Virus record (IMG/VR): IMGVR_UViG_2932987669_000001
Span: 20,545 to 84,544 of that record
Reading direction: 5' to 3' (one strand)
From: a virus
Length of the DNA stretch: 64,000 nt
This document shows positions 5,949-34,697 of the stretch, one piece after another; the stretch's first letter is position 1, and each line of letters starts with the position of its first letter. The notes below the pieces were generated by a model that searched no databases, had not been told where the DNA came from, and worked only from the letters and a program-made list of their open reading frames with translations. The position numbers and the translations under genes are program-made.

Positions 5949-8900
5949 TTATTTTTTGCGATTGAATACTTTCTCAACAAGTTTAAGCAAGTCCACTTGA
6001 AAAAGGCCGGGGATGCCGACCCTGGAGGACAGCAAGTCCTTAACCTTGTCCCACTCGTTGCCGCCATAGTCCTTGTGGTGTTTGAGTTCCAAAACGGTGT
6101 CGCGGATTTCGTCCACTGTTTGGACCAGGTCACCACCGTCGATACCTTCGAGGATCTTCCGCAACGGCACGAATTCCTCCGATCGATCACAAGGGAACGC
6201 ACCGTCCGGTTTTTTGAGGTAAAAGCTCAAGGCTTTGTGGTATTTGAAAAAGTGTGGCTGAGCCTCTTCATGGCAATCCCTACACGGGCAACCGATGCTT
6301 TCAGTCACTGCAAGATTGGGGAAATCGCCGTGGATTGCGGTCAGTTCCTCCCGCAGCACCGCCAGGAAATCGCGTTTTTGCCTGCCCTCGATCCAAATAT
6401 CGATACGGTGTCTGTTGCGATCGGCGCGAATAAGGGCGCGAGCGCCGCTAGTTGTGGCACGCAGCACCATGCCGTACCTCCAGCGCAAGGAGTCCTCGAT
6501 GGTGCGGTATGACCTCACCATCAGGCGGGGCAAGACGGTGGGTGGCAGAAACTCCGGGTACTGGCACCGGAATTTTGTTGCGCCGCGAAAATCGAAACGG
6601 AACTCGGGCTCGTCCTTGGGAAGTAAATTTGGAATTAGGATCTTGGTGTTATTGGAATCCAGTGGGAAGCACAATTCGAACCGACGCATCAACTCGATGA
6701 GGTATCCGTGTTTTTCGCGCGGGTAGGTGAACTGCGGGGCGCTGGAGGCTTTTTGGTCAGCGTGGACCGGTGTTTCGAGCAGGTTGGTTAGGGTCGACCG
6801 GTCGGTTGGTACAATGCCGTGTGCTTTAATCACCCTCGGGTGGTTGAGGATGCGATAAACCCCGTTGGTCACCCACTCGGGATTGAGCACGTGGGTGTCA
6901 TCCAAATGGAGATCCTCGAAGTGAATGGCGATGCCCAGGTCGTTGAAAAAGCGGACAAGGGCTTCCTGCTGGCCGGTATGGTCAACTTTGGCCTTGTGGC
7001 ATAGATGGGAGAATTCGTCGCGAGTGAGAAAAGGTTTTTCGGTTGTTTCCAGTTCCGCTTTGACTTCCAGCCAGGCTTCTGGCCACTGGGTGCGAATCAT
7101 GGGCACTGCCAGCAATTCCTTGCGGAGCGCCGCACAGAATTCGGCGATACCCTCCGCCCCTTGTTTGCAGGAAGTGCGAATGAAGCCGCGAATATTGGGG
7201 AACATTTCTCGGAGCCTCTTAGTTTCGAACTGGTAGTTTGGATGGAGGTCAGATTTATTGAGAACCACCAATACTGGCGCGTCGGGGGCATAGGTGCTTG
7301 CGTGGCCGAGCCAATAACTGGGGTCTTCGTCCTGGCGGCCATCGAGGACCACAACGAAGAGGCTGCGACGCGAAAGGAAGAACCTATGGGTGGCGTGCAT
7401 GATCTCCTGGCCGCCAAAATCCCACAACCGGACTTGAAGTTGGTGGTCGGGGGTGGGGACGAAATAATCGCGGATATTAATGCCGTGGGTTTGGTCTTCA
7501 TGGGGATCGAAGGGCTCACCCAGCAGTTGTTTGACCAGAGAGGTTTTTCCTGCCTGGCCATGGCCGAGAAGGACCAGTTTGACTTCTGCCAAGGCTCGGG
7601 TTGGTCCAGATTGGTCGAAATAGGCCGTCACCGCATCGTGCCCAGCTTCGAATAATTCAAGTGGCGGCGAAACCAACGGATTGCCTTCAATTCCTAACTT
7701 CCAAAGTGAAGGTATTTTAAAAAGGACTGAAGGTAAGGTATCGATGTGGTTTTCAGATAGCCACAAAGTGTGGAGTTTTCTGAGATTAGCGAGCTCGGGT
7801 ATTAGGGCCGTCAGTTGGTTGTTTCTAAGATTGAGGTCGGTGAGGTTGGTGAGGGAAGCAAGCGCCGGGGGAAAGGTCGTCAATTGATGAAGCTCAAGTT
7901 GAGATCGTCAAGGTTAGTGAGGGAAGAAAGTTCGGGAGGTATTGCCGTCAGTAGGTTGCTGCCCAGATCGAGGGAGGAAAGGTTGGTGAGGGAAGAAAGC
8001 TCGGGAGGAAGTGTGCTCAGTCGGTTACCACTCAGGTCGAGGTGAGAAAGGTTGGTGAGGGTGGTGAGTTCGGGTGGCAGGGCCGTCATTTGGTTGCCGC
8101 TCAAATCGAGGTGAGACAGGTTAGCAAGGGAAGCGAACTCGAATGGCAGGGCTGTTATTTGATTGTCCCCCAGAAAGAGGCGGGTAAGGTTGGTGAGAGA
8201 ACCAACCTCGGGTGGCAGGGTTGTCAGTTGGTTTCCGCCCAGGTTGAGGTCGGTAAGGTTGGTGAGGGAAGCGAGCTCTGGTGGTAGGGCTGTAAGTTGG
8301 TTGCCCCTCAGGCTGAGGCCGGAAAGGTTGGTGAGGGAAGTGAGTTCGGGTGACAAAGCTGTAAGTTGGTTGCCCCTCAAAAAGAGTTGGGAAAGATGGG
8401 TGAGGGAAGCGAACTTGGGTGGCAGGGCCGTCAGTTGGTTGTCGTTCAGATCAAGAAAGGTAAGGCTCGTGAGGGAAGCGAACTCGTATGGCAAGGTCGT
8501 CAGCTGGCTGCCGCTTAGATATAGGACGGAAAGCTTGGCGAGGGAAGCGAACTCGGGTGGCAGGGCCGTCAGTTGGATATTCCTAAGATCGAGGTGGGTA
8601 AGGTTGGTGAGGGAAGTGAGTACGGGTGGCAGGGCCGTCAGTTGGTTGCCGCTCAGATATAGGACGGAAAGGTTGGTGAGGGCAGTGAGCTCGGGTGGCA
8701 GGGTCGTCAGCCGGTTGTCCCTAAGATCGAGGTGAGAGAGGTTAGAGAGGGAAGCGAGCACGGGTGGTAGGGTCGCCAGTTGGTTGCGGCTCAGATAGAG
8801 GCGAGAAAGGTTGGTGAGGGAAGCGAGCTCTGGCGGCAGAGTCGACAGTTGGTTGTCGTCCAGATCGAGGCGGGTAAGGTTGGTGAGTGAAGCAAGCTCT

Positions 8901-8998
8901 GGGGGGATGCGCCACAGGTCCATATGAGATAAATCTAGCTCAGCTTGCCCAGTTCGGTTTGCCTCGGAAATTTTCTGCTGAGCTCTCTCATAACTCAT
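5949..8998 (-). pseudogene. LRR-Roc-COR (Roco) GTPase gene split by a 1-nt deletion near 7888 (ORFs 7880-8998 and 5949-7883); possibly a sequencing error
   Basis: ATG 8998 with AAGAGGAG RBS; 18 LRRs; Roc motifs GHGQAGKT, DFGGQ, NKSD; COR region. Junction reads agc ttc atc aat tga; adding one A gives S-F-N-Q-L-T-T-F-P-P, the LRR consensus, and a ~1016 aa protein. Confidence 0.85.
7677..8917 (-). repeat. Tandem 69-bp (23-aa) leucine-rich repeat array, 18 units
   Basis: Units LTxLPPELxSLTNLxxLxLxxNQ; also visible at DNA level (recurring aggttggtgagggaag and ggcagggccgtcagttgg on + strand). Confidence 0.9.
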
Positions 8999-9465
8999 AA
9001 CGACTCCTCTTTTACCACAGCTCTGCTCACCCCGCGTGCTCAGCTCACATCCCCAGATGCTTGCTGACGAGCAGGCGGGAAATCCAATGAGCCATTTTCT
9101 TATGGCGAAATTAGCCAACCGTAGGGGACACGCTTAATGAGGATGCCTCGCTGGTTGCGGCTCGTTCCTCACATTCTTTTGGAATCCTTTCACGTTCACC
9201 CGAGTCTCGCGGTGAGTCTCTTGGTTGGCTACCGGTTTGGTTTTTCCGTGAGTGTTTTGGGTTTGAGCCAAGGCTGACTGCAAGTCTGGGTACGACCAAA
9301 CCTCCTTAAGCCACGGCTCTCCGATCACATAAGCTCAATACAGGTGCTGGTGTTTTGAATTTGGGGTGAGTTGATTCCTTAATTAGAGATAGAAAAACCA
9401 AATAGCGCAAAATCCCTCAACCTGACAATGTCGAACCAGGTCATTGCACGCCATCCCTAATTTGG

Positions 9466-9507
9466 ATGACTCGCCCTCCCATTGGTTTCTGTAATTAGTC
9501 CCTAACC
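9466..9507 (+). promoter_or_regulatory. Bipartite late-promoter-like motif, copy 1 (before portal)
   Basis: GACTCG-N15-CTGTAATTAGTCCCTAACC; same spacing as the other four copies. Confidence 0.65.
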
Positions 9508-9525: not shown

Positions 9526-11025
9526 TTGCAGCAGACCGAGTCATCCCCACAATATATCCTCACAACAACTGGAATCCCGACCCAGCCACTGGCCACGGCG
9601 GCGGCGTTAGACGCGTCCGCTTTCGCTGCGGTCACTGCCGACGATGGGATCCCTACAACGTGGGAGGACCGGGCCAAACAGGCGTGGACCTACTACCTGG
9701 AAGAGCCGATCGTCAAAAACGCGATCAACTCGTGGCGGACCTTCGCGGTCGGTGAGGAAATCAAAATCACGTCCGAGGACGACAACCTAAAGGCCGAGGC
9801 CACCGATATGGCCCGGCGGCTGAACCTTTCCAGTTGGATCAAGGACATGGTGCTTCAGATGCTGGTCAAGGGCGACGCGGTCGGGTTCAAAAAAGCCGGG
9901 CAAGGCGACGTATTGGAAGAACTAGTCTCGGTCAATCCGGTTTCGGTCAAGGTGAAGTACGTCCAAGGCCAGCTCGTCGAAGCCAAGCAGCACTCCGAAA
10001 ATCCCGGAACCGCCGACGTGCTGGACTTGCCCGTCGACCAGGTGCTGCACCTGAAATGGGACGCGCCGGGATTCAGTCCACGCGGCAATTCCATGGTGCT
10101 GCCCGCCTTCCAGAGCATCGAGCTATTGTGGGACTACCGCAAAGCCGAGCGGGCCATCGCCAAGCGCTGGGCCACGCCGTTTCGCCTGCTCAAGGTCGGC
10201 GGCTCGTTCGGGCCCAAGCTCGTCATGCCCGATCAGAAAATGCTCGAAACGGTGCGGGACATGGTGAACCGGATGGATATGAAATCCGGCCTGGTCGTTC
10301 CATTCTACGTGAATGTGGAGACGCACGGCACCGAAGGCAGCGTGCTCAACGCGGAAGAGAAGGTTCGCGAAGTCAAAGAGGACATCATGATCGCGTTGGG
10401 CCTGAGCAAGAGCCTCGTCTCAGGCGACGGGCCGAACTTCGCCACGGCTTCGGTCAGCTTGCAAAAAATGCTGATCATGATCCGCGAAATCAAGCACGCG
10501 GCGCTGCGAATGCTCCACTGGGTTTTTGACGACTGGCTACAGGCGCGGGGCCAAAAACGTGGTGCGATCCAGTTTCTGTTCAACGACCTGGACCCGAGCG
10601 ACGCGGTCGATTTCAAGCGCCTGCTGTTGGAGCTTTACGATCGAAACCTGATCAGCCGGGCAAGCCTGCAAACCAAGATGGACCTGGATCCCGACTTCGA
10701 GAAGGCCAACCAAGAAGCCGAGCAGGTGCGGGTTTCCATCGCAGACGACCGGCAGGTGGGCAACATCCTCGGCATGGTGGCCGCAGGCATCATGGGGCCC
10801 GAAACGGCGCAGGAGCTGCTCGGCCTTGATCCAGGGAAAAATCCGACGGGGATCAGCCGCGCTGAATCCGATTGGGGCGGGCTGAATGCTGCCGGGAGGC
10901 ATCACGACGAATTATGTGATGCCTGTGGTCATTTCGATGCAGACGAAAGCCGGTGCCGTGTCCACCAGAGCGACCGGACCTTTGATGAATTCGCCTGCCG
11001 CTTTTTCGAACGGTGTGTGGTCTAA
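9526..11025 (+). CDS. Portal protein with Cys/His-rich C-terminal extension
   Basis: AGGAGG RBS and TTG start; ~500 aa; position before head genes; portal-like YYxEEPIVKNAIN, PRGxSxV...A and G-L-S...G-xGPNFAT segments. Confidence 0.8.
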   Translation: MQQTESSPQYILTTTGIPTQPLATAAALDASAFAAVTADDGIPTTWEDRAKQAWTYYLEEPIVKNAINSWRTFAVGEEIKITSEDDNLKAEATDMARRLNLSSWIKDMVLQMLVKGDAVGFKKAGQGDVLEELVSVNPVSVKVKYVQGQLVEAKQHSENPGTADVLDLPVDQVLHLKWDAPGFSPRGNSMVLPAFQSIELLWDYRKAERAIAKRWATPFRLLKVGGSFGPKLVMPDQKMLETVRDMVNRMDMKSGLVVPFYVNVETHGTEGSVLNAEEKVREVKEDIMIALGLSKSLVSGDGPNFATASVSLQKMLIMIREIKHAALRMLHWVFDDWLQARGQKRGAIQFLFNDLDPSDAVDFKRLLLELYDRNLISRASLQTKMDLDPDFEKANQEAEQVRVSIADDRQVGNILGMVAAGIMGPETAQELLGLDPGKNPTGISRAESDWGGLNAAGRHHDELCDACGHFDADESRCRVHQSDRTFDEFACRFFERCVV

Positions 11026-11035
11026 GGTGGCAACC

Positions 11036-12532
11036 ATGCAGACACACGCCACGCAGGCCGAAAGTATTCTGGCCAAGCGCATCCGCCTGGCCACCGAGCG
11101 AAGCACACAGACTCGAAACCGATATACGGAGCAGGCCATTCGCGAATTGACCGAGGTGCTGGACCAGGCCGAGCAAAACGTCAAAAAGGCGATTACCCGG
11201 TATGCGAGCCTGGGTTCCCTGCCGGACAACAAACTCAAGGCCCGCGACGGTCTGGAACGATTGCAGGCCGATATCCAGGAAACCATGCGCGAGCTGAAGA
11301 AGGCGCAAACCTTGCGGTTCCGACGTTCGGTCAAGGACGCTTTCAAGCTCGGGATTCAGGGCGGCGTTGACGAGCTGGTCGAAGCGCGCTGGCCGGGCTG
11401 GTCGCTTGATGCGGAAGGAGTCCAATCACTGGCCAGGGACGCCTTCACCCTGATCGACCGTGATGCCTTAGACTTCATGGTCAATTACAGCCTGGTACTC
11501 GCCGGTGACGTCCAGCGAGAGCTGTCGGGCGGGATCAAGCGCACCATCCTGAGCGGGATCACCACCGGCAAGGGACCAAACGACATCGTCCGAGATCTCG
11601 GTCGGGTTGTCCAAGATCCCGAATCGTTTCGACATGCGGGCAGCCGGGTCTTTTCAAAAGCCCAGTACCGAATGGAAGTGATCGCGCGGACGGAAGTGCT
11701 GCGTGCCCACAACCAAGGCCGAATGAAATTCCACCGCGAGGTGGGTGTCCAGCGCCTCGAATGGCTGACCATGGCAGACGAACGGACCTGTCCGGTTTGC
11801 GGCCCACTGGACGGGAAGGTGTTCCCGATCGACAGGTTCCCGCAGATCCCACGACATCCACAGTGCCGCTGCGGCAGTATTGTGGCCCTCCCGATCGAAC
11901 TGCTTGCGCCACAACAGATCCGAGACCAGGCCAGATCTAAAACCCGCCGAAAACGGGAAGCCAAGCTGGCGTTCGAGGCCGGTGGAAAGGCCGACCTGGC
12001 CAGCCTGACGTATCGCCAACTCGCCGATCTGAGCCAGGAGCACGGCGTGTCGCGGTCGCGAACCAAACGGGAGCTGGTCAGACTGCTCGATCAGGCCGAA
12101 CCGGGCATTGATCACGGTGAACTCAGCGGGGCAGCCTTGAGGGCCAAGCTGGCCCAGCACGGGATCGGACGGAAGCGATCCAAAACCGAGTTGGCGAATC
12201 TGCTCGCCAGAAAGCAGGCCGCGTTGCTGGAAGCCCGAAAGGAAGTCGAGACGATCCGCGCGAATCCGAAATCCAAGCTGTGGGAACTCACCGTGAACGA
12301 GCTCCAGGGTCTCGCCAAAAAACGCGGCATCTCGACCTACCTGTCGCGGGCCGAAGTGATCGAACTCCTCGACGAGCGGGACCCAGGACGTAACCATGTG
12401 GCCCTGACCGGCAAGGAGCTGGCCGAAGCGAAGAAACGCTTTCAACTGGGTCGCCACAAGACCAAATCATTATTGATCCGGGCCTTGGAAAAGCAGGCAG
12501 GCTTGCAGCTCGCGGAGGACCTTTTGGCCTAA
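11036..12532 (+). CDS. Minor head protein (Mu gpF / SPP1 gp7-like) with four C-terminal HEH/Rho-N-like repeats
   Basis: ARTE...AHNQG...WLTMADERTCPVC...HPQCRC signature; ATG 11036 after the portal stop with AAGGTGG RBS. Confidence 0.85.
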   Translation: MQTHATQAESILAKRIRLATERSTQTRNRYTEQAIRELTEVLDQAEQNVKKAITRYASLGSLPDNKLKARDGLERLQADIQETMRELKKAQTLRFRRSVKDAFKLGIQGGVDELVEARWPGWSLDAEGVQSLARDAFTLIDRDALDFMVNYSLVLAGDVQRELSGGIKRTILSGITTGKGPNDIVRDLGRVVQDPESFRHAGSRVFSKAQYRMEVIARTEVLRAHNQGRMKFHREVGVQRLEWLTMADERTCPVCGPLDGKVFPIDRFPQIPRHPQCRCGSIVALPIELLAPQQIRDQARSKTRRKREAKLAFEAGGKADLASLTYRQLADLSQEHGVSRSRTKRELVRLLDQAEPGIDHGELSGAALRAKLAQHGIGRKRSKTELANLLARKQAALLEARKEVETIRANPKSKLWELTVNELQGLAKKRGISTYLSRAEVIELLDERDPGRNHVALTGKELAEAKKRFQLGRHKTKSLLIRALEKQAGLQLAEDLLA

Positions 12533-12552
12533 ACGATCCTTTTTTCGAAAAT

Positions 12553-12594
12553 GTGGTCCGGTTTGCCTCACGGATCTGTAGTTAGTCCTCAACC
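12553..12594 (+). promoter_or_regulatory. Bipartite late-promoter-like motif, copy 2 (before MTase-protease-scaffold)
   Basis: GGTCCG-N15-CTGTAGTTAGTCCTCAACC. Confidence 0.75.
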
Positions 12595-12628
12595 CGACAT
12601 GGGCAGCACACCAACCAGGGGACGAACT

Positions 12629-14992
12629 GTGGAACTCATGCAAACGGACCTGGATCGCATCCAGTTCCTTCTCGAAACGGAGGCGGGCCTTACCCTCGGC
12701 GAGGACCTTCGCACCGAAGGCAAAGCCGAAGAGGGCGAGCGTCCCGCCTACAAAACCAGTTACTTGGGAAGCAAACAGAAACTCGTCGACTGGATCTGGA
12801 AGCACACACCGGACGGCGTCAAAATCGTCTTCGATGCGTTTGCCGGGTCCGCCGCTGTCGGCTACATGTACAAGACCAAGGGCCTGCAGGTCATCGCCAG
12901 CGATCGTCTGCGGATCAGCTATCACATGGCCCGCGCGATCATCGAGAACCAGAAAACGCGCCTCTCGGATGAAGACGTGGCCATGCTGCTGGCGGCCAAC
13001 GCGGACGCCGGAACCTTCGTTCGTAATCACTTCAAAGGGATGTACTTCAACAAGGGCGTCCACGAGCGCATCGACACGATCCGATCCAACATCGACAAGC
13101 TAAAGGGCTACAAAAAGGATCTGGCCCTCTTCGCGTTGGTCCGAACCTGCATGCTGGGCACCGACCACGGGCACTTCGGCAGTCGGACGCCGGACTCGCG
13201 TCTGGTGCTCAATGCGAAGGCGTTCGACGAAGGCTTCCAGCGGTTCGTGAAACGGATCAACCAGTTGGTCTTCGACAACGGTCAAGACAACAGGGTGATC
13301 CAGGGCGACATCGAGTCCGTGTTGCCGCAGGTCAAGGCGGACCTGGTCTATTTCGACCCGCCCTATGCGACCGAGTTCAGTGCGGCCAATTACACGGCCG
13401 TGTACCACTTTGTCGAAGGCTTGATGACCTATTGGAAAGGGATGGCGCTTCGCGATACGGCCCTAAAAACCTTCGAGACCGACCACAAGGCGATCAGCCC
13501 GAAAACAGCTCCGGCATTCTTCGAGAAGTTCCTGGGCGCGGCCCAGCACATTCCCATCTGGTTGATCAGCTACCGCGATAAGGCGTTCCCCAACGAGTCG
13601 CAAATGCGCGGCATTTTCGCCAAGCTGGGTCGCACGTCCACCATGCGGTCGAAGGATCACAAGTACAACCTCTTCAACAAGCGGGCCTCCGATGCGAACC
13701 AACCGAAGGAACGGCTGTTCCTGGCGACCCGAGACTCGGCCAAGTCGAAAGCCGACGTCGAAATCATCCAACTCGACGGGAACGGGCACGAGGAGGAACC
13801 GCAGACTGCCGCATGCCACACGGAATTCCCGGTTGAGATCGAGCTAATTCCCAACGCGCCGCTCAAAACCTCGGCGGAACAGCAGTCCCCTCTCGGTGAC
13901 CCTCAGTTCCGGTGTGTCTTGTGCCGGGTTGGAACAAACAAGAACGGCGACCACTTCAGCCACGCGGAACTGTCGACCCGCTACACCACGGCCATCAACA
14001 AGAAGGTCGACCTGAAACACAGCCAGGAATTCGACGACATCGTCGGCGGCATCATCGGTTCGGACTTCGTGGAAGACGACCAAGGCGCCCGTGTGGAAGT
14101 CGTCGGCGAGCTCTACCTGGCCGAGAGCGCCCACGCCGCGCTGGCCTACAAGCTGATGAAGCGCGGCATCGTCCGCCAGGTGTCGATGGAGTGCGACTAC
14201 GCCGAGGGAGAGTGCTCGGTCTGTCACAAGCGGTTCGGCTCCAAGGCCAACTATTGCATTCACTTGGCCAAGTTCAAGGGCGCGCAGTTTCAGGGTCAGC
14301 CGGTTTACGAAATTCTACACGGCGTCACCTTCACTGGCCTCGGCCTGCTCGACCGGAAGGGCGCCGACGAAAACGCCAAGATCACCCAGGTCGGGTCCGA
14401 ACAATCGGGATTCGATCGCCAACCCTCCCAAGGAGAAGACATGGAAGACAAAGCGAAGGACCATGCCGAAGCCGCCAAAGACCCCGGAGACGGCGGTGGT
14501 GGGGGCACCGGTCAACCTGAATCCTTGGAGCAGCAGAACCGAGCGCTCCAGGAAGAGAACAAGAAACTCAAACAGCAGGTTCAGGAACTTACCAAGCGGA
14601 TTGAAGAGCTCGAAGCCGAGCAAAAGGCGGCGGCCAATCGGGTCCGCGCCGAGAAGCTGCTGGCGCAATACGCGAAGAAAGGTGTGTCCTTTTCCACCGA
14701 CGAAGCGCGCAAAAAGGAGCTCGATCGGCTGGCGGGCCTCTCGGATGAAGCCTTCGCCGCGACCGAGGCCGCTTTGGCAGTTCTCCCGGAACCGTCGGTG
14801 CCCAAAGCAGAAAAGGAGCCCGAAAAGGCCAAGACGGAAGCGCCGAAAGCGGCAGCCAACCTGAGTACCGAAGCCCAGGTGCGACCGCACGACGTGGACG
14901 ACACACCTGCATCCCTCGAAGACGAACTCACCCAAGGCTTCATGGCCGCGTACCGAGAACGGCTCGGCTTTACCGCCAGCGGTTCCTCTTAA
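12629..14992 (+). CDS. Fusion: D12-class DNA adenine methyltransferase + prohead protease-like domain + coiled-coil scaffold
   Basis: MTase: YLGSKQKL, FDAFAGS (12830), DPPY (13355), KERLF. Protease-like: GTNKNGD...VDLKH...VSMEC...CSVC...GVTFTGLGLL (~13890-14395). Charged coiled-coil C-terminus. Single uninterrupted ORF; GTG 12629 with GGGGA RBS (ATG 12638 alternative). Confidence 0.85.
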   Translation: MELMQTDLDRIQFLLETEAGLTLGEDLRTEGKAEEGERPAYKTSYLGSKQKLVDWIWKHTPDGVKIVFDAFAGSAAVGYMYKTKGLQVIASDRLRISYHMARAIIENQKTRLSDEDVAMLLAANADAGTFVRNHFKGMYFNKGVHERIDTIRSNIDKLKGYKKDLALFALVRTCMLGTDHGHFGSRTPDSRLVLNAKAFDEGFQRFVKRINQLVFDNGQDNRVIQGDIESVLPQVKADLVYFDPPYATEFSAANYTAVYHFVEGLMTYWKGMALRDTALKTFETDHKAISPKTAPAFFEKFLGAAQHIPIWLISYRDKAFPNESQMRGIFAKLGRTSTMRSKDHKYNLFNKRASDANQPKERLFLATRDSAKSKADVEIIQLDGNGHEEEPQTAACHTEFPVEIELIPNAPLKTSAEQQSPLGDPQFRCVLCRVGTNKNGDHFSHAELSTRYTTAINKKVDLKHSQEFDDIVGGIIGSDFVEDDQGARVEVVGELYLAESAHAALAYKLMKRGIVRQVSMECDYAEGECSVCHKRFGSKANYCIHLAKFKGAQFQGQPVYEILHGVTFTGLGLLDRKGADENAKITQVGSEQSGFDRQPSQGEDMEDKAKDHAEAAKDPGDGGGGGTGQPESLEQQNRALQEENKKLKQQVQELTKRIEELEAEQKAAANRVRAEKLLAQYAKKGVSFSTDEARKKELDRLAGLSDEAFAATEAALAVLPEPSVPKAEKEPEKAKTEAPKAAANLSTEAQVRPHDVDDTPASLEDELTQGFMAAYRERLGFTASGSS
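14441..14992 (+). CDS. Nested in-frame scaffold protein (internal start)
   Basis: AAGGAG 5 nt before in-frame ATG 14441, exactly at the protease/coiled-coil boundary. Confidence 0.6.
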   Translation: MEDKAKDHAEAAKDPGDGGGGGTGQPESLEQQNRALQEENKKLKQQVQELTKRIEELEAEQKAAANRVRAEKLLAQYAKKGVSFSTDEARKKELDRLAGLSDEAFAATEAALAVLPEPSVPKAEKEPEKAKTEAPKAAANLSTEAQVRPHDVDDTPASLEDELTQGFMAAYRERLGFTASGSS

Positions 14993-15005
14993 AGGAGATT
15001 TGTGC

Positions 15006-15368
15006 ATGCCATTTATCTACACGAGCCACCAGAGCCTGTCCTACGGCGACGGCTACCTGCAGGCCGAAGGGCAGACCGGCCAGGTGGTGCGCCTGGTCGG
15101 GAATGATCTGTTCGCGGTCAACACCGACCCCACCGAGAAATCGTTCGGCATCCTCATCCGAGACTACAAAGCAGGCGACATGCCGGGCATTTACTGCAAC
15201 GGCGGGGTGCTGACCACGGATGTGTACGAGGGCTCCCCTGCGGCGGGCGACGAGCTCAAGGTATCCAGCCAAGGGTACCTGACGCCAGGGCCGCAAGCGG
15301 GCGAACAGGTGATCGGCCAGGTCATTTCGGCCGATGGCGGCATTCTTAAATTCAAGCTGCTGGTATAG
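15006..15368 (+). CDS. Head decoration / capsid cement protein
   Basis: ~120 aa beta-rich, Gly-rich protein between scaffold and capsid; AAGGAG RBS. Confidence 0.65.
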   Translation: MPFIYTSHQSLSYGDGYLQAEGQTGQVVRLVGNDLFAVNTDPTEKSFGILIRDYKAGDMPGIYCNGGVLTTDVYEGSPAAGDELKVSSQGYLTPGPQAGEQVIGQVISADGGILKFKLLV

Positions 15369-15378
15369 GGAGGATTCT

Positions 15379-16245
15379 TTGATTGGAACACAGGGGTTGG
15401 CCGCAGGCTCCCAGAACTTCATGGCCGCCATGGCCGCGTTGATGCGACAGGCACTGGAATCACCGGAAGGGATGCGCGCTTTGGCGGCGGCGATTGCCAA
15501 GCCCATCGAAACCGAGATCAAGCGCAAGGAGATCAGCTCGCTGTTGCTGACCCGGCACGATCTGCCGAAAGGCGAACGTCCGGTTTACCAAAAGAAGCCC
15601 AAGGTTCGCGCGTTCTGGATCAGTAAGGACGGTGAGGCACAGATGCAGGAGGTCGGTCGGGACGAGATCGAGTTCCCGACGCATCGAATCCACGCCAACC
15701 CGATGGTGGATATCTCCGTGTTGAAGCACGGGAACATCGGGTCCTTGATGGACCTCCAAACGGCTACAGCCGAGCAGATCCGTCGCGAGATCGACAAGCG
15801 GACCATCGACGTGATTTCGAGGGCCGTTCCGGCAGAGAACACTGTCACGGTTGCGGGGAGCACCTTGACTGAGGCTGCGCTGAACGAGGCGATGAGCATC
15901 ATCGAGGATCTGGAATTGACGGTGAAGTTCATCCTCCTGCGCGGTCGTCGTTTCAACGACCTTCGCGGTTGGAACCTGGACCCCGAAACCAAGCTGGAGC
16001 TGCGTCAGAAGGGCATCATCAAGAACTACGGGACAGCGTCGATTCTTACGACGTCCGCAGCCCCGATGGACGAGATCATCCTGATCCCGGATCAGGAGGT
16101 CGGCAAAATGCCCGTGCGCGAGAAGTTGATGGTCGACTCCATCGAGCAGAAGGGCCGCTTCAAGACCGGCTGGCTGGTGTGGCAGGAGCTGGGCCAGGGG
16201 ATCACCCGGCCCGACCTGCTGGCCAAGATCAGACTGCAAGGATGA
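15379..16245 (+). CDS. Major capsid protein (HK97-like fold expected)
   Basis: TTG start with GGGAGG RBS; ~290 aa; canonical position after scaffold and decoration genes. Confidence 0.75.
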   Translation: MIGTQGLAAGSQNFMAAMAALMRQALESPEGMRALAAAIAKPIETEIKRKEISSLLLTRHDLPKGERPVYQKKPKVRAFWISKDGEAQMQEVGRDEIEFPTHRIHANPMVDISVLKHGNIGSLMDLQTATAEQIRREIDKRTIDVISRAVPAENTVTVAGSTLTEAALNEAMSIIEDLELTVKFILLRGRRFNDLRGWNLDPETKLELRQKGIIKNYGTASILTTSAAPMDEIILIPDQEVGKMPVREKLMVDSIEQKGRFKTGWLVWQELGQGITRPDLLAKIRLQG

Positions 16246-17871: not shown

Positions 17872-17900
17872 TTGACTCTTACGATTGTAGGATCTAGAAT
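17872..17900 (+). promoter_or_regulatory. Sigma70-type promoter of the PadR cargo operon
   Basis: TTGACT-N17-TAGAAT; near-palindrome TACGATTGTA in the spacer (possible operator). Confidence 0.7.
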
Positions 17901-17936
17901 GGGTATGCTTGAGTCGTACAAAAGCAGGAGTGACAA

Positions 17937-18230
17937 ATGCTACCAGACTTATCAAACAAGGAACACTTAATATTGGGCCTCCTGGTTACTCACGGACAGC
18001 TATATGGCTTAGAGCTGGTCAAAAAATCTGAGGGGCAATTAAAACGGGGCACAGTTTATACAACTTTAAGCCGGATGATTGATAAAGGGTATTTGAATTT
18101 TTCTGTCGAAGAAAATGCTACTCATTCCGGTCTCCCCCGGCGAAAATATTCTCTAACAGGACATGGTCGCAAAGTGTTTGAGGAGTTCAATGTATATGCT
18201 GCAAGCTTTGTAAAGGGGTTTGCCATATGA
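17937..18230 (+). CDS. PadR family transcriptional regulator
   Basis: LYGLEL...GTVYTTLSRMIDKGYL...RRKYSLTGHG winged-helix signature; AGGAG RBS. Confidence 0.9.
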   Translation: MLPDLSNKEHLILGLLVTHGQLYGLELVKKSEGQLKRGTVYTTLSRMIDKGYLNFSVEENATHSGLPRRKYSLTGHGRKVFEEFNVYAASFVKGFAI

Positions 18231-19168
18231 AAAACTCGGTTATTATTCCAGTTTGGAAAGTAAAACTTGCAATAATCGGTTTTGGCTTGTCCTTTTTTTG
18301 CCCCCTTGTAGCGATTAGTATAGCCTTAATGATGTCTCCTGATAAAATATTCTCACAGATCGACAAAGAACAAATGCTTGAAAGCGTCAACATTGCATTT
18401 GATTCCACGAGGAATACAGAGTCTTTTGCGAATATTTCATCTGAAGCTTTAGATATAGAATTCCATGGAGTGTTAAGCCATGGGAGCAAACAAGAAAAAA
18501 TTCTAAAGTTGAAAGACGAAATGAATTGTTTTATTCAAGATGCTTTCGAGAGTGAAACCTTAAATGAAACCATATTCTCGATTCACCAGTACGGGTATGG
18601 TTCATTTGAAAAAATGTTGAACCCCATGCTTGAAAATTCACCTGCTTATAATAACGGAAGGAGGGTGAATCAAGACGCATTGGAAATATTTAGAGATAGC
18701 TCGATTGCTTTGAGTTTAATCTCAAAAAATACTTTATCCCTGCTTCAGAATAATCAGAAAAAAGCCAACTATTTGGGGATGAAATTAGTCGCCTCTCAAT
18801 ATGCTACCTATGTTTTGACTGGCCTTGGTTTTTTGGGGTTGTTACTTACCTTACCCTTCTTTTTTGTTAACATCGAGACAAAGAACGAAAAAACCTTGTT
18901 GATAAAAGCTCCCGGGTGGCGCCTTTCGCTCTTCTCTAGATTGGTTTTTGGACAAAAAGCCTACAGTGCAGAATTCTTAGAGCTTCAATCGAATTTAGAT
19001 GATGAATATTTTGAGGCGTATTCCGATGGTAGGATTAAGGAAGCAAGCTGGATTCATCTCAGATATATAGTTATATTCTGGACTCTCTTTTTGAAAAAAG
19101 TGCTCAGAGGCCCCTTCTACCTTTTCAAAGAGTTAGTGTCAATCCAAAACAAAATCGACAAACTTTAA
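18227..19168 (+). CDS. Membrane protein coupled to PadR
   Basis: ATGA overlap; TM segments near N-terminus and ~aa 190-215; C-terminal PGWRL...DDEYFEA...GRIKEASWI resembles PadR-neighbour permease-prefix domains; AT-rich. Confidence 0.7.
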   Translation: MKNSVIIPVWKVKLAIIGFGLSFFCPLVAISIALMMSPDKIFSQIDKEQMLESVNIAFDSTRNTESFANISSEALDIEFHGVLSHGSKQEKILKLKDEMNCFIQDAFESETLNETIFSIHQYGYGSFEKMLNPMLENSPAYNNGRRVNQDALEIFRDSSIALSLISKNTLSLLQNNQKKANYLGMKLVASQYATYVLTGLGFLGLLLTLPFFFVNIETKNEKTLLIKAPGWRLSLFSRLVFGQKAYSAEFLELQSNLDDEYFEAYSDGRIKEASWIHLRYIVIFWTLFLKKVLRGPFYLFKELVSIQNKIDKL

Positions 19169-19195
19169 GCTCTTTATGGCCTTCTGACAGGAGTT

Positions 19196-19702
19196 TTGAT
19201 TTATGGAAACACTATGAGTTCATCGCATGGACTATACATCTTCACCGTCTTTAATTGTTTTTCCAGGCAGGGGCAGGTCTCGACTCTGTTTGATGAAGAC
19301 TGTGTAAGAAGAAACTTACTAATTTGGAGTCTTCAAGGCCCGGCCCTACAGGAAACCATAGAGATGGGACCAAAAAATCAAACTTGTGAGCAAACCAGTC
19401 AGGTGACTTTGTGCAAAATAGCGTTGCACCTACAAGGCTTCCAGTTGTACTTTCTCACTGCCCAGTACAAAACACTGATCCGCTCAGCAATGCCACTGGC
19501 CAAACAGAGAAACGACCGGTCTACCTACAAAATCACCGGCATCGAGATCAAAGGGGCCATCCCGACGATCAAAGCGGAGCGGTTCTCCACGCTGAGATGC
19601 TACACCGACTCGGGATTCTTCATCCGGGTGCGCCTCGGTGAAAATGGCAAGTACATGATTATTGAAGAATACACGGAGACCCAGCCCCATTCCGATTGCT
19701 GA
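19196..19702 (+). CDS. Hypothetical protein (start uncertain)
   Basis: ORF only; the 3' part has more coding-like codon use. Confidence 0.35.
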   Translation: MIYGNTMSSSHGLYIFTVFNCFSRQGQVSTLFDEDCVRRNLLIWSLQGPALQETIEMGPKNQTCEQTSQVTLCKIALHLQGFQLYFLTAQYKTLIRSAMPLAKQRNDRSTYKITGIEIKGAIPTIKAERFSTLRCYTDSGFFIRVRLGENGKYMIIEEYTETQPHSDC

Positions 19703-19841
19703 GTTACAGAAAGAGAAATAAGGCGATTTCCGTGAGAATCTACTAGTTGTTATCGGTGGAAAATATCGTCGCAAAAAAATGGGGCACTTTTAGTCTCGGG
19801 GAAAGGGAGCGAGCTTGCCATTTGAAATGGGGAGGGGCAAG

Positions 19842-22800
19842 ATGGATTTAGCGTGGAAGGATAAAGGATATCTACTACTTCAGTTTAAAATGCGGTGTTA
19901 TAAGCAAAATGCTATTGAATTTCAAAGTTTTTTTGAAGAGGTAATGGAGGAGGTATATGATGACTTTCGGAAGATAAGGCCTCATGGAAACCTTGGAGAT
20001 GGTGGGAATGATGGATATCGACCTAGCGTAGGCGAATACTATCAGGTTTACTCTCCTCGTCAGCCACAGTTTAAAGACACCGATGCTGCCAAAAAGTTTA
20101 AAGACAATTTTAAAACTCTGAAAGCAACCTGGGGTGAATTTGACAATGTAAAAACGTATTATCTTGTATTTAACGATAAATATCATGGGTCTTCACTTCC
20201 CCTGGAAAAGGCACGCATAGAACTAAAAAGAGAAAATCCAGATGTTTTATTTGATATAGTTCTTGCTAGAGATTTTGAAAGGCTGTTTTTAAAGTTAGGT
20301 CAAGAGTCTTTGCTTCGACTTGATTTTGATATTGACAGTAGAAGAGCAGTGGAGATCGTTACAAATATTTTTGATCAGGTCAAAGATTTATTGAAAAAAG
20401 GGCAAGGTGAAAGCGCCTATGGCTTGTTGCAAGCAAATGAAATTGGGTTACATATACTGAATGATGATCATTTGTTGCATCAGCAAAGGGTTCTGGAATG
20501 TAGGTGTTTAATTTCCTTAGAACGAATCCCAGAAGTAAAAGAAAAATGCCAGCACCTACTGCTTGGAAAACCAGAAGATATAGATTTCCTTTGCATCCTC
20601 ATGGATCTAAGTTTGAGCTGCCGAGACTTTGCTGGATTTGAAGAAAAATTAAACCAAGCCAAACATATCGACCAGGGCAGCATAAGAGCTTATTGCCTCG
20701 AGCTTGAGTGTATTATGTTGTCTAATGGTGAGGTGACGGATGAAAACCTGAACTACTTGTACAAAAGAGCCGATTACTCACCGCCGTTTGTAAGTGTGAC
20801 ATTATCCTATGCTTGTGATTATTTGGGAAGGTTTGAAGAGGCAGATAAATGGATGAGGTTTGTAGAAAACAATGACCAAGACGATCTGGCTGCTCACTTG
20901 GGGGCGTTGTGTATTTTGCATTCTAGGGGGAATCGAGCCCAGGATCCTCAGAAGAGAGCAGAGATTAATAAAGAGCTACAGGAAAAATCTAAACTTGTTT
21001 ATGATCACTTTAGTCAATTTGGCCCTCTCTCTCCGAGGGACAGGGTTCTTTTGCAATACTTATCAATTCAGAATGACTTAGAGACAAGGGACTATGAGCA
21101 AATTATTAATAAGTCTTCTCATGCGATTTCACTCGTTATGAAATGCTATTTTGATTACCAGATAGCAATTATTCTGACTAAAAATTTGCAAGTAGCTGAG
21201 TTGTCAAAAAAGATACTAAGCGAGCTATTGGCTTTTCTTGAGGCATCTTCGTTTTCTCCGCCATTGTTTCTGCAAAAACAATTGTTATTACTGTTTTTGT
21301 CTTCGAATATTTCCATGAGCGAAATCAAAGAATACTTCATAAATACTCAGCAAAGGCAGTTACTATCTCTCCTGGAGAATATTGAGGAGAAACGCTTTGA
21401 GGGGGCCCTGGAAGAGCTCCGAAACGATTTAGATTTCGCTTACCATCTGGCGCTGGGCGTTAAACGGTTTCCTGAGTTTCGTAGATATTTGTATTCAAAA
21501 CTTCCTGACTTGCCTGATCATCCAAAGGGTGCTATTTCCCTCATTTTGTCTGTGGACGAGGGTTGTTATGAAGAGACGTTAAAGTTTCTGCAAAATATCT
21601 GTTTAGATACCCTGAGCTACTACCATAAAAACTATTTGCTCAAGGCTGTGAGAGACAAGAAGGCGTGGGATATTGAGATTTTCTTACTGGAGAAACTTCT
21701 AGGGGAAGAATGGGACTCTGAAAAGCTATGGTCAATTAAATACAGGTTAATCTATCTGTATTATTCATCGCAACAATACCTTAAAGTCATCCTCTTAGGA
21801 GAAGAGCTTCTTCTGGCTTGTCTAGAGGAAAACGTTCTTACCAAAGAGGAGGTTAGGCGTGTGCTTTGGGCAACTCTTCAATCATGCCTGTGCCAAGGGA
21901 AAGTGGAGTCTCGTTTTTTTGACAGAGCCCTAGATCTGCTCGAGCGCTTTTCTGGCTATGACTCAAGTTTTGATTTTCTCTTGAACACCAAAGCTATTGC
22001 AGAAATAAAAAGTAATAACCCAAAAGCAGCAACTGAAACCATACTCAAGGCGATAAAGGAAAAAGGCCTCCTCTCCCTTGAGGATTGTAATAGCGTATTC
22101 CAGGTAGTCGTATTTGAATTAGGAGAATCTGAGTGTCTTTCAAATAGCTCGCTTGAAGTGGTTACTCCTGACTCGTTTGTAAAATTTAAAGACAGTGACA
22201 AGTGGTATGTGATGAGCGAATCTTCTCTGCTTGAAGCTGTTCCGGTCCCTAAGAAATCTTCAAGGTACAAGGTTTACTTAGGACAAAGACCCAATGTTCC
22301 ATTCATATTTTCGAGAAAGTTCTCCTCTGAAACACTAGAAATAGAACGGATTTTTTGCTTTAAGAACTATGCGTTTTGGTATGTTTTCCAAAAGATTGGT
22401 CATGCAATAAATCAAGATTTGATTCCAGGGGTTGTCTCAATTCCTGTTAAAAAAGATAGCAAAGGATTTGACTTTGGGAATCTAATTTCCGTACTGAAAG
22501 AAGAAAGGAATCATGGTGCAGAGTATTTTCACCAATATTGTAACAACAATTGGCCTTTTGCTGCATTAGCAACACATGAAGGAGGAATCCTTTCTGCAGT
22601 TCAGAGAATAGCGAGCGAAGGAAGAGGTAGCATACGTTTTAGAGCAGGCGGTATTCAAGAGTATCAAAATCAACTTTGCACAGCGAGAAAGTTAATTGAG
22701 GAAAAGCGCTCCTTTTTCCTTGATGGAACATCGGCATTTTTTCTGGTGATTTCAGGTCTATTGGATAAGGTGTGCGATTCTTTCCCTGGTATGAGAGTTC

Positions 22801-23687: not shown

Positions 23688-23910
23688 ATTAATGCTGTAT
23701 CAGTGCGTCGTTCTTGATATGTTTTTTTTGCCCCCCTCCTTGTTTTCTAAAGTCTGAGCCCACATAAATCTTACCCCATGGTGAAGTGGCTCTCATGGTC
23801 TCCGCGGCGGGTGCGATATTAGGATGGGGGCTCTTTTACCGATTGCGCGCTATTAGGGTTTGCATTGAGTGCATGAGCTTGAAAAATAATTTTCGATAAA
23901 TCCATCAAAA

Positions 23911-23952
23911 TCGACCCGTTTTCCTTCGGCTTTCTGTAGTTAGTCCTCAACC
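23911..23952 (+). promoter_or_regulatory. Bipartite late-promoter-like motif, copy 3 (before tail operon)
   Basis: GACCCG-N15-CTGTAGTTAGTCCTCAACC. Confidence 0.75.
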
Positions 23953-23972
23953 CACCGAGGTTGGAGGACGCC

Positions 23973-34609: not shown

Positions 34610-34667
34610 TAATTACCTGCAAAAAGGTGAAGAAATTCAGATTTTTTATCACTTTGAAGTCTTAGTT

Positions 34668-34697
34668 AGAATACACGTTACTTTGCCCAAATGTCAA
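34668..34697 (-). promoter_or_regulatory. Sigma70-type promoter of the dCTP deaminase
   Basis: Minus strand TTGACA-N18-TATTCT, ~60 nt upstream of ATG 34609. Confidence 0.65.

What the first reader, a model, noticed from the sequence alone, without database searches (positions are those of the whole stretch)
12629..14992. DNA adenine methyltransferase fused in frame to the prohead protease and scaffold: a capsid-loaded methylase?
Seen: one uninterrupted ORF holds an intact-looking D12-type m6A MTase (FDAFAGS, DPPY), a low-complexity linker, a prohead-protease-like domain and a coiled-coil scaffold. It sits between MuF and the capsid genes, directly behind late-motif copy 2. Known: protease/scaffold proteins assemble inside procapsids and self-process; phage P1 packages DarB, a protein with a methyltransferase domain, to protect injected DNA from restriction. 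Inference: the fusion forces the MTase into every prohead, where it could be cut free to methylate DNA during packaging or be ejected into the next host as anti-restriction. I know of no described case of this polyprotein, but could not search. Best candidate for a new system in this window.
Basis: partly seen in the sequence, partly recalled or inferred. Interest (0 to 1): 0.9.

Follow-up and report, generated by a model that had tools for sequence, protein, structure and literature searches.

The report
Methylase fused to capsid protease-scaffold
A prophage's head-building gene joins a DNA adenine methyltransferase to the capsid-maturation protease and scaffold, and also makes free scaffold from a hidden internal start. 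The methyltransferase is therefore probably carried into every new capsid; this design is common in prophages of many phyla, but I found no paper that describes it.

Summary
One uninterrupted late gene (GTG 12629 to stop 14992, 787 aa) encodes three parts.

- **Methyltransferase:** an intact Dam/D12-class m6A DNA methyltransferase with both catalytic motifs.
- **Protease:** a prohead serine protease. Its fold matches T4 gp21 (Z 11.6) and the herpesvirus assemblins. His490 and Ser545 are near-invariant, and it carries a conserved zinc-finger insert.
- **Scaffold:** an acidic coiled coil with a conserved C-terminal tail.

New here: an in-frame Shine-Dalgarno plus ATG at 14441 gives a nested 183-aa scaffold-only product. 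The same column is a start codon with AGGAG upstream in 64 of 64 related loci. No conserved start precedes the protease, so the protease is made only with the methyltransferase attached.

The fusion is not an artefact. It is one open frame in 62 of 64 viral contigs. It occurs in prophages of at least 15 phyla, including cultured Oleidesulfovibrio alaskensis G20 and Desulfarculus baarsii, always annotated only as "DNA methylase". A second prophage in the same genome has the same protease-scaffold without the methyltransferase.

Capsid loading is a strong inference. What happens to the enzyme afterwards (ejected against restriction, active at packaging, or lost) is untested. I found no published description. 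Earlier agents of this scan reached the same reading on other genomes.

The parts
12574..12595 (+). Late-operon motif, copy 2 (promoter- or activator-site-like word), 34 nt before the gene start
   Evidence: The same word occurs with 0-2 mismatches on the + strand near 9487, 23931, 34872 and 41064, each upstream of a gene.
12617..12622 (+). Shine-Dalgarno (AGGGGA) for the full-length product
   Evidence: It lies 6 nt before GTG 12629.
12629..14992 (+). Full-length CDS, 787 aa: methyltransferase, protease and scaffold
   Evidence: Open frame. End-to-end match to phrog_27806, E 1e-262. Homologue N-termini align here.
12761..13729 (+). Dam/D12-class N6-adenine DNA methyltransferase domain (residues 71-393 counted from 12551)
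   Evidence: Pfam PF02086, 80.3 bits. AF2 model pLDDT 87; best PDB matches are Mcbe1, E. coli Dam, DpnM and T4 Dam.
12833..12850 (+). SAM-binding motif I (D95-x-F-x-G-S100)
   Evidence: D, F and G are invariant in 58 aligned domains. The motif is present in nearly every domain of 119 homologues.
13355..13366 (+). Catalytic motif IV, DPPY (residues 269-272)
   Evidence: Invariant. DPPY in 236 of 236 domains of 119 homologues.
13736..13894 (+). Acidic, length-variable linker (residues 396-448). It contains the conserved junction motif C-H-T-x-[FI]-P-V-E at 13814-13837.
   Evidence: Gap-rich and poorly conserved except for the motif. pI 4.4. The motif is also present in the methyltransferase-less paralogue.
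13895..14395 (+). Prohead serine protease domain (residues 449-615). His490 is at 14018-14020 and Ser545 at 14183-14185.
   Evidence: AF2 pLDDT 88.7. T4 gp21 (5jbl) Z 11.6, rmsd 2.9 over 130 aa; herpesvirus proteases Z 7-11. Foldseek top hits are all assemblins. BFVD hits are phage G gp19 and many 'prohead protease' entries. His and Ser are at least 90% conserved in 112 sequences.
14213..14263 (+). Zinc-finger-like insert in the protease (C555, C558, C569, H571)
   Evidence: All four ligands are at least 90% conserved in 112 sequences. The profile hits C2H2 zinc fingers in the PDB.
14430..14435 (+). Internal Shine-Dalgarno (AAGGAG)
   Evidence: It lies 5 nt before ATG 14441. AGGAG[AG] sits 7 nt before the homologous start in 63 other loci.
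14441..14992 (+). Nested, co-terminal scaffold-only CDS (183 aa, from Met631)
   Evidence: The column is ATG (58), GTG (4) or TTG (2) in 64 of 64 loci. It is the only internal SD-plus-start shared by 12 lineage representatives. It is also present in the methyltransferase-less paralogue.
14507..14653 (+). Coiled-coil segment of the scaffold
   Evidence: Weak matches to coiled-coil families (DivIC, HALZ, bZIP) at residues 653-701. The heptad-like segment is conserved.
14879..14968 (+). Conserved C-terminal tail (residues 777-806), the presumed capsid-protein docking element
   Evidence: It is the best-conserved stretch of the scaffold across 120 homologues. The docking role is an inference.
9526..11025 (+). 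Portal protein (context)
   Evidence: phrog_2739, E 1.5e-46.
10886..12532 (+). MuF-like minor head protein (context)
   Evidence: Pfam Phage_Mu_F, E 1.2e-14.
15000..15368 (+). Small beta-rich head protein, decoration-like (context)
   Evidence: Weak phrog_673 hit. Syntenic 120-133-aa gene in L003 and L004.
15379..16245 (+). Major capsid protein, about 288 aa from TTG 15379, too short to carry a delta domain (context)
   Evidence: phrog_2522, E 5.6e-79. Homologue found downstream in 121 loci, typically 287 aa.

Best explanation
Gene 12629-14992 is the head-maturation gene of a temperate myovirus-like prophage, and it makes two co-terminal proteins.

- The long product (787 aa) is a Dam-class DNA adenine methyltransferase, an acidic linker, a T4-gp21/HK97-type prohead serine protease with a zinc-finger insert, and a coiled-coil scaffold.
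- The short product (183 aa, from the internal SD and ATG at 14441) is the scaffold alone and is probably made in excess.

Both share the C-terminal scaffold and tail, so they co-assemble with the short major capsid protein, which has no delta domain. Every protease molecule that enters a procapsid therefore brings a methyltransferase with it.

After shell completion the protease activates and digests the scaffold. It is inferred to cut the linker at or near the conserved C-H-T-x-[FI]-P-V-E segment just before the protease core, by analogy with gp21's self-cleaved N-terminal peptide. That cut would free a folded 42-kDa methyltransferase inside the head.

The most likely purpose is to carry the enzyme with the genome, so that phage DNA is adenine-methylated at packaging or on entry into the next host, before restriction. 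This would be a covalent alternative to T4 capsid-targeting peptides and to P1 DarB.

Shown: the architecture, the folds, motif conservation, the nested start signal, synteny and distribution. Inferred: encapsidation, the cleavage site, retention in virions and anti-restriction.
For: - Single open frame with domains as stated.
- Protease fold: Z 11.6 to T4 gp21 and Z 7-11 to herpesvirus assemblins. Foldseek top 20 are all assemblins. BFVD hits are prohead proteases. His490, Ser545 and the Cys3His site are near-invariant in 112 sequences.
- Methyltransferase: Dam-like fold. DPPY in 236 of 236 domains and motif I in nearly every domain of 119 homologues at about 45% identity.
- Nested start: SD plus ATG/GTG/TTG in 64 of 64 loci. 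It is the only conserved internal start in 12 lineages that are 53-56% identical to the window.
- No conserved start before the protease.
- A methyltransferase-less paralogue sits in the same gene position in the same genome: MuF, then a 416-aa protease-scaffold, a 133-aa protein and the capsid protein.
- Full synteny in Desulfosarcina alkanivorans: terminase, portal, MuF, fusion, 120-aa gene, 287-aa capsid protein, sheath.
- Capsid protein homologue downstream in 121 loci.
- Fused in 62 of 64 viral contigs and present in at least 15 phyla.
- Precedents: T4 internal proteins and Alt are targeted to the core and trimmed by gp21, and gp21 self-cleaves an N-terminal peptide that blocks its active site (PMC9958956). 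P1 DarB is packaged through a 30-residue signal at about 40 copies per virion (PMC9024508). Polyvalent proteins ending in assemblin-like peptidases have been noted (PMC5512222).
Against: - No protein-level data: no virion proteome, methylome or expression data for any member. No sequencing run could be listed.
- The cleavage site is a guess. The junction motif could be a structural part of the protease.
- A 42-kDa cargo per protease (about 100 kDa in the two-methylase forms) crowds the procapsid. The enzyme could simply be degraded.
- SAM supply inside a filled capsid is unclear.
- The basic pI of this copy (9.2) is not a family trait (median 6.8).
- Close homologues of the methyltransferase also occur unfused (L133, L140, L145) or in another phage's structural module without a protease (L068). 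Fusion is therefore not obligatory for its function.
- Binding of the scaffold tail to the capsid protein could not be tested.
Confidence: 0.6

Rival explanations
1. Cytoplasmic late methylase. The methyltransferase acts on replicating phage DNA in the cytoplasm before packaging, like ordinary phage orphan Dam enzymes. The fusion only gives late timing and high dosage. Any enzyme dragged into proheads is degraded or inert.
For: The gene has its own late-motif copy. Many phages carry unpackaged orphan methylases (general knowledge). Close homologues of this methyltransferase also exist unfused. Unassembled fusion protein would be free in the cytoplasm and could be active.
Against: An adjacent gene would give co-expression. 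Yet the covalent link is kept in at least 12 lineages at about 45-56% identity and in at least 15 phyla, with no conserved separate start for the protease. The long product is expected to be the minor one, which fits poorly with a dosage argument.
Confidence: 0.25
2. Non-catalytic role. The methyltransferase fold serves as a DNA-binding or regulatory module inside the head, for example to organise or anchor DNA or to hold the protease inactive, and not as an enzyme.
For: Its position directly before the protease resembles a pro-domain. T4 gp21 is kept inactive by its own N-terminal segment (PMC9958956).
Against: DPPY is kept in 236 of 236 domains and the SAM motif is essentially invariant. The methyltransferase-less paralogue and many stand-alone proteases work without it.
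Confidence: 0.07
3. Artefact or pseudo-fusion. Two genes were joined by an assembly or frameshift error, or the middle domain is not a protease.
For: Pfam Peptidase_S78 is only a sub-threshold hit (E 0.063, 13.9 bits against 21).
Against: The same frame is open in 62 of 64 independent viral contigs and in many isolate genomes. The fold match to gp21 and the assemblins is clear and the catalytic His and Ser are conserved.
Confidence: 0.02

Closest known systems
Nested protease/scaffold genes: lambda C/Nu3, Mu I/Z, herpesvirus UL26/UL26.5 (from my own knowledge; not retrievable in the library)
   Same: The protease is N-terminal to a scaffold in one frame. An internal in-frame start gives a co-terminal scaffold-only protein. 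The shared C-terminus takes the protease into the procapsid. The gene sits between portal/MuF and the capsid protein.
   Different: Here a complete DNA methyltransferase (two in the long forms) is attached in front of the protease. The protease also carries a conserved Cys3His insert.
T4 prohead core: gp21 protease with the capsid-targeted internal proteins IPI-III and Alt (PMC9958956)
   Same: The protease fold matches (Z 11.6). Enzymes and anti-restriction proteins are built into the scaffolding core, trimmed by the protease, kept in the head and injected.
   Different: T4 cargo are separate polypeptides with a short N-terminal targeting peptide. Here the cargo is covalently fused to the protease-scaffold itself. 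Retention and injection are unproven.
Phage P1 DarB (PMC9024508; PMC5512222)
   Same: A methyltransferase-containing protein is packaged in the head to protect incoming DNA from restriction.
   Different: DarB is a 250-kDa EcoKI/TaqI-like methylase with an SF2 helicase. It is targeted by a 30-residue N-terminal signal and helper Dar proteins. The window protein is Dam/D12-class, has no helicase and is fused to the protease-scaffold.
Polyvalent proteins with a C-terminal assemblin-like peptidase (Iyer, Burroughs, Anand, de Souza, Aravind 2017, PMC5512222)
   Same: Effector domains sit in one polypeptide with an assemblin-like peptidase at the C-terminal side, are encoded among virion genes, and are predicted to be processed at assembly.
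   Different: The paper calls this peptidase class 'rather limited in distribution'. Its text does not describe a Dam-type methylase, a trailing scaffold or a nested start. The methylases it discusses are DarB-like.
Encapsulin cargo loading (from my own knowledge)
   Same: An HK97-fold shell is filled with an enzyme through a C-terminal docking peptide on the cargo.
   Different: Encapsulins have no protease, DNA or maturation. Here the docking element is a viral scaffold that is later digested.

Membership tests
Dam/D12-class (alpha) N6-adenine DNA methyltransferase (Pfam PF02086) | Sequence match above the curated threshold | tested here: met
   80.3 bits against a cut-off of 22, residues 71-286.
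Dam/D12-class (alpha) N6-adenine DNA methyltransferase (Pfam PF02086) | SAM-binding motif I, then a target-recognition region, then catalytic DPPY (alpha order) | tested here: met
   D-x-F-x-G-S at 95-100 and DPPY at 269-272. Both are invariant in 58 aligned domains, and DPPY is present in 236 of 236 domains.
Dam/D12-class (alpha) N6-adenine DNA methyltransferase (Pfam PF02086) | Dam-like three-dimensional fold | tested here: met
   AF2 pLDDT 87. Best PDB matches are Mcbe1, E. coli Dam, DpnM and T4 Dam, E 1.5e-6 to 6e-5, TM about 0.5-0.6 on the target.
Dam/D12-class (alpha) N6-adenine DNA methyltransferase (Pfam PF02086) | m6A activity and recognition sequence | not testable with these tools
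   Needs an enzyme assay or a methylome.
Prohead (capsid maturation) serine protease of the HK97 / T4 gp21 / herpesvirus assemblin fold | Assemblin-like fold | tested here: met
   5jbl (T4 gp21) Z 11.6, rmsd 2.9, 130 aa; 1vzv Z 11.2. Foldseek PDB top hits are all assemblins, probability 0.99-1.0. BFVD E down to 9e-18.
Prohead (capsid maturation) serine protease of the HK97 / T4 gp21 / herpesvirus assemblin fold | Conserved catalytic His and Ser | tested here: inconclusive
   His490 and Ser545 are at least 90% conserved in 112 sequences. Residue-by-residue superposition on gp21's catalytic pair could not be made, because no coordinates were available.
Prohead (capsid maturation) serine protease of the HK97 / T4 gp21 / herpesvirus assemblin fold | Gene position between portal/MuF and the major capsid protein | tested here: met
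Pfam Peptidase_S78 (sequence family) | Match above the gathering threshold | tested here: not met
   13.9 bits against 21, E 0.063. Distant relatives score 17-18.6 bits. This is a distinct subfamily recognisable only by fold or profile.
Nested protease/scaffold gene (lambda C/Nu3 type) | In-frame internal start with a ribosome-binding site at the scaffold boundary, co-terminal with the long product | tested here: met
   AAGGAG, 5 nt, then ATG 14441. A start codon plus AGGAG in 64 of 64 loci; the only conserved internal site.
Nested protease/scaffold gene (lambda C/Nu3 type) | Two proteins actually made; the short one in excess | not testable with these tools
   Needs proteomics or ribosome profiling. 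No runs were listed.
P1 DarB-like methylase-helicase | EcoKI/TaqI-like methylase fused to an SF2 helicase | tested here: not met
   The methylase is D12 class and no helicase domain is present. DarB features as described in PMC5512222.
T4-type capsid-targeting-sequence cargo | Separate protein with a short N-terminal targeting peptide removed by the protease | tested here: not met
   The cargo is covalently upstream of the protease. The N-terminal 40 residues are a low-confidence helix, not shown to be a signal.
Polyvalent protein (Iyer et al. 2017) | Several effector domains in one virion-module polypeptide with a processing peptidase | tested here: inconclusive
   One effector here and two in the long forms, plus an assemblin-like peptidase. 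The peptidase is followed by a scaffold rather than being C-terminal as the paper describes.

The most novel reading that the evidence does not exclude
The N-terminus of this prohead protease is a dedicated enzyme-loading site. A lineage of temperate myoviruses that crosses phyla uses it to ship one or two Dam-type methyltransferases inside the capsid. The two-domain form resembles M.FokI, which suggests both strands of an asymmetric site are modified. The genome would then be modified during packaging or at entry, independently of the host it was made in. This could explain why proteins more than 90% identical occur in Geobacter, Desulforhopalus, Desulfatiglans and a Chromatiaceae genome. Activating self-cleavage of the protease would double as the release step for the cargo.
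Probability: 0.25. Interest if true: 0.85.

Novelty: new variant of a known kind. Interest (0 to 1): 0.66.

Why it matters
Packaged anti-restriction enzymes are known from a few model phages (P1 Dar, T4 internal proteins), where separate proteins rely on targeting peptides. Here the cargo is hard-wired to the one enzyme that must be inside every procapsid.

The design is conserved across at least 15 bacterial phyla and hundreds of prophages, yet databases list it only as "DNA adenine methylase". If the methyltransferase is indeed encapsidated, three things follow:

- It would be a simple and widespread route by which temperate phages escape restriction when they change hosts.
- It would be a natural template for loading enzymes into HK97-fold shells.
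- Many "orphan methylases" in genome annotations would need re-reading as virion components.

The idea is directly testable, because cultured lysogens exist: O. alaskensis G20, D. baarsii DSM 2075, Geobacter anodireducens and Desulfosarcina alkanivorans PL12.

Tried and rejected
- **PDB by sequence.** The C-terminal half and a 112-sequence profile found only C2H2 zinc fingers, which match the insert. The methyltransferase had no PDB sequence hit. Structure searches were needed for both.
- **Second internal start at the methyltransferase/protease junction**, as suggested by earlier notes on other genomes. Only one lineage (L005 group) has an ATG with a distant SD there. The window has no start codon in that region, and the site is not conserved.
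- **Other cargo domains in front of this protease.** Of the 24 N-terminal extensions compared, two are truncated methyltransferases, one keeps only a short methyltransferase remnant, and many of the rest carry copies of one unknown ~85-aa domain, not other enzymes. More distant proteases in BFVD are fused to Dps/ferritin; I did not follow this up.
- **Basic charge of the cargo** as a sign of co-packaging with DNA. It holds for this copy (pI 9.2) but not for the family.
- **Sequencing runs** to check reads or expression: none was listed.
- **Literature.** Nine full-text searches and accession look-ups found no description of this fusion. No methylome entry for the named hosts appears in the supplements of Blow et al. 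2016.
- **Phage-record search.** tblastn found only partial hits, to methylases or to phage G gp19, and no full-length relative among 50,697 deposited phages.
Full report
**1. The observation**

The + strand is open from 12551 to 14992 (813 codons). Residue numbers below count from 12551 (protein P0001).

Homologues begin exactly there: MELFATD aligns with VELMQTD, and tblastn matches in 77 viral loci start at residue 27. The ATG at 12551 has no ribosome-binding site. I therefore take the gene as 12629-14992, 787 aa.

A roughly 20-nt word at 12574-12595 recurs on the + strand near 9487, 23931, 34872 and 41064, each just upstream of a gene.

Neighbours are the portal (9526-11025), MuF (10886-12532), a small decoration-like protein (15000-15368), the major capsid protein (phrog_2522, E 6e-79) and a neck protein. 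Further on lie the tail sheath and tape measure. The window sits at 5.63-5.70 Mb of an 11.8-Mb single-contig genome, so this is a prophage.

**2. The three domains**

*Methyltransferase.*
- Pfam MethyltransfD12 scores 80.3 bits against a cut-off of 22.
- An AlphaFold model built on 58 aligned domains has pLDDT 87. Its best PDB matches are Mcbe1, E. coli Dam, DpnM and T4 Dam.
- Motif I (D95-x-F-x-G-S) and DPPY (269-272) are invariant in that alignment.
- Among 119 full-length homologues at about 45% identity, every methyltransferase domain keeps DPPY (236 of 236), and 113 proteins keep both motifs twice. That is the signature of an active enzyme.

*Protease.*
- Pfam gives only a sub-threshold Peptidase_S78 hit (E 0.063).
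- An exhaustive profile-free search with residues 425-640 found 541 relatives.
- An alignment of 112 of them shows near-invariant His490, Ser545 and Asp606, plus a Cys555/Cys558/Cys569/His571 site.
- The model (pLDDT 88.7, core above 96) matches T4 gp21 (5jbl, Z 11.6, rmsd 2.9 over 130 aa) and herpesvirus proteases (Z 11.2, 8.3, 7.3). These stand clearly above the next rows.
- Foldseek's top PDB hits are all assemblins.
- In BFVD it matches Bacillus phage G gp19 (E 9e-18) and dozens of annotated prohead proteases. Phage G gp19 lies downstream of that phage's portal.

*Scaffold.* Residues 631-813 are acidic (pI 5.0). They contain a coiled-coil-like stretch (weak DivIC, HALZ and bZIP hits at 653-701) and end in the best-conserved tail of the region (777-806). 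The capsid protein is only about 288 aa (typically 287 aa in 121 related loci). That leaves no room for a delta domain, so a separate scaffold is expected (inference).

**3. A nested scaffold gene**

AAGGAG lies at 14430-14435, 5 nt before the in-frame ATG at 14441 (Met631).

In 64 related loci with DNA, the homologous column is always a start codon (ATG 58, GTG 4, TTG 2) with AGGAG[AG] 7 nt upstream. Many of those loci are near-identical to one another. I therefore reduced them to 12 lineage representatives that are 53-56% identical to the window. Each 800-1300-codon frame has only one or two SD-plus-start sites in total, and the only shared one is this column.

The residue changes only between Met, Val and Leu, encoded by ATG, GTG and TTG. 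That is what a start codon does. The methyltransferase-less paralogue has the same signal (AGGAGA, then TTG).

By contrast, no conserved start precedes the protease. One lineage has an ATG with a distant SD there, and the window has no candidate at all.

The gene therefore most likely gives a long methyltransferase-protease-scaffold product and a short scaffold. This is the arrangement known from lambda C/Nu3, Mu I/Z and herpesvirus UL26/UL26.5 (my own knowledge).

**4. The module with and without the methyltransferase**

The same genome holds a second head module at 9.60 Mb. It runs MuF (476 aa), a 416-aa protease-scaffold that is 43% identical to residues 408-811, a 133-aa protein, and a 287-aa capsid protein. 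It has no methyltransferase.

Many database relatives of the protease are likewise stand-alone (for example 411-aa proteins 58-65% identical in the protease domain). The methyltransferase is thus an accessory N-terminal addition to a self-sufficient protease-scaffold.

Most homologues (about 1,280 aa) carry two tandem methyltransferase domains, separated by a small unknown domain. One of these proteins is annotated as FokI methylase. The window's single domain is the orthologue of the first one: 50-67% identity, against 33-41% to the second.

**5. Distribution**

- phrog_27806 matches end to end (E 1e-262).
- 491 proteins were found in the 5.8-billion-protein set.
- 77 IMG/VR loci were found, of which 62 of 64 full-length matches are a single open frame.
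- 76 loci were found in species-representative genomes. They span Desulfobacterota, Armatimonadota, Acidobacteriota, Verrucomicrobiota, Hydrogenedentota, Planctomycetota, Chloroflexota, Nitrospirota, Gamma- and Alphaproteobacteria, Ignavibacteriales, Zixibacteria, Omnitrophota, Spirochaetota and Bacteroidales.
- Cultured carriers include Oleidesulfovibrio alaskensis G20 (ABB38701.1), Desulfarculus baarsii DSM 2075 (ADK85181.1), Geobacter anodireducens, Desulfobulbus rhabdoformis, Pseudodesulfovibrio profundus and Desulfosarcina alkanivorans. All are annotated only as adenine methyltransferase.
- In D. alkanivorans the whole head-tail module is syntenic with the window.
- Three of ten genomes of the host's own family have matches.
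- A few homologous methyltransferases are not fused: L133, L140 and L145. L068 sits between head and tail genes of a different phage.

**6. Mechanism**

*Shown:* the architecture, the folds, motif conservation, the nested start signal and the synteny.

*Inferred:*
- The shared C-terminus takes both products into the procapsid.
- Because the protease has no start of its own, the methyltransferase goes in with it.
- On activation the protease digests the scaffold.
- It probably cuts the acidic linker near the conserved C-H-T-x-[FI]-P-V-E segment, about 20 residues before the protease core. This segment is also present in the methyltransferase-less paralogue. T4 gp21 is activated by self-cleaving an N-terminal peptide that blocks its active site (PMC9958956), so one cut could both activate the protease and release the cargo.
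- A folded 42-kDa domain is unlikely to leave through shell pores. It would stay like the T4 internal proteins or Alt (same review), or like P1 DarB (about 40 copies per virion, packaged through a 30-residue signal; PMC9024508).

Whether it methylates DNA at packaging, is ejected to act in the next cell, or is simply destroyed cannot be decided here.

My odds:
- Encapsidation in procapsids: about 0.75.
- Retention with a protective function: about 0.4.
- Purely cytoplasmic late methylation, with the fusion incidental: about 0.25.

**7. What is known**

The closest published statement I found is Iyer et al. 2017 (PMC5512222). [quoted passage not shown] The methylases it discusses are DarB-like EcoKI/TaqI-type enzymes coupled to helicases.

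Nine full-text searches and accession look-ups found no description of a Dam-type methyltransferase fused to a protease-scaffold.

This scan has met the same architecture on several other genomes, and earlier follow-up agents reached the same reading. I consulted those notes after my own analysis of the nested start.

**8. Verdict**

This is a new variant of known kinds: a nested protease-scaffold gene and capsid-packaged anti-restriction cargo. It is widespread but apparently undescribed. The key functional claim is untested, and it is readily testable in cultured lysogens.

Noticed in passing
window 9487-9506, 12574-12595, 23931-23953, 34872-34892, 41064-41084 (+ strand): A roughly 20-nt word (core TCTGTAGTTAGTCCTCAAC) occurs five times, always on the + strand and 30-60 nt before a gene start (portal, fusion gene, pre-sheath gene, baseplate block, 41126 gene). 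It looks like a late promoter or activator site that divides the structural genes into operons.
   Followed up: partly
G000:C1:9603196-9607428 (locus L003): A second, related head module in the same chromosome has the protease-scaffold (416 aa, 43% identical) without any methyltransferase. It keeps the same internal SD-plus-TTG scaffold start. This is a natural with/without pair in one host.
   Followed up: yes
window 14213-14263: The prohead protease carries a Cys-x2-Cys...Cys-x-His zinc-finger-like insert that is near-invariant in 112 relatives, including stand-alone proteases. I know of no such insert in T4 gp21 or the HK97 protease. Its role is unknown.
   Followed up: partly
L004 around 9190-9500 (P0019 residues about 395-500); also P0138, P0141, P0142, P0150, P0162: An ~85-aa domain with no Pfam match (consensus roughly W-E-E-T-x-N-E-I-R-Y-R-V-R-D-P ... 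W-T-x-x-K-A-x-x-W) sits between the two methyltransferases of the long forms. It also occurs in one or two copies at the N-terminus of methyltransferase-less proteases of this family. Function unknown. The window's protein lacks it.
   Followed up: partly
proteins P0293-P0301 (cluster 3): Fusion proteins at least 90% identical occur in Geobacter anodireducens, Desulforhopalus sp., Desulfatiglans anilini and a Chromatiaceae genome. This suggests very recent spread of the phage across classes and phyla, or a very broad host range.
   Followed up: no
L068:5752-7668: In a different uncultured phage, a methyltransferase 58% identical to the window's lies between an SU10-type capsid gene and tail genes. 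It has about 80 extra N-terminal and about 185 extra C-terminal residues and no protease. It may be another way of attaching the same enzyme to a virion.
   Followed up: partly
window 17900-24000, 32000-35000, 50000-52000, 60000-64000: Islands of about 40-47% GC interrupt the roughly 60% GC structural operons. They carry defence-like cargo: a PIN-TPR-GreAB-C protein (19815-23687) and a deaminase on the opposite strand (33107-34609). Upstream, not in these islands, are a Roc-COR/LRR pair (5949-9118, minus strand) and an amidoligase (4938-5855).
   Followed up: no
BFVD entries A0A6J5N5R9 and A0A6J5RFH1: More distant prohead proteases of uncultured phages are fused to Dps/ferritin domains. This hints that enzyme or protein cargo fused to prohead proteases is more general than this family.
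   Followed up: no
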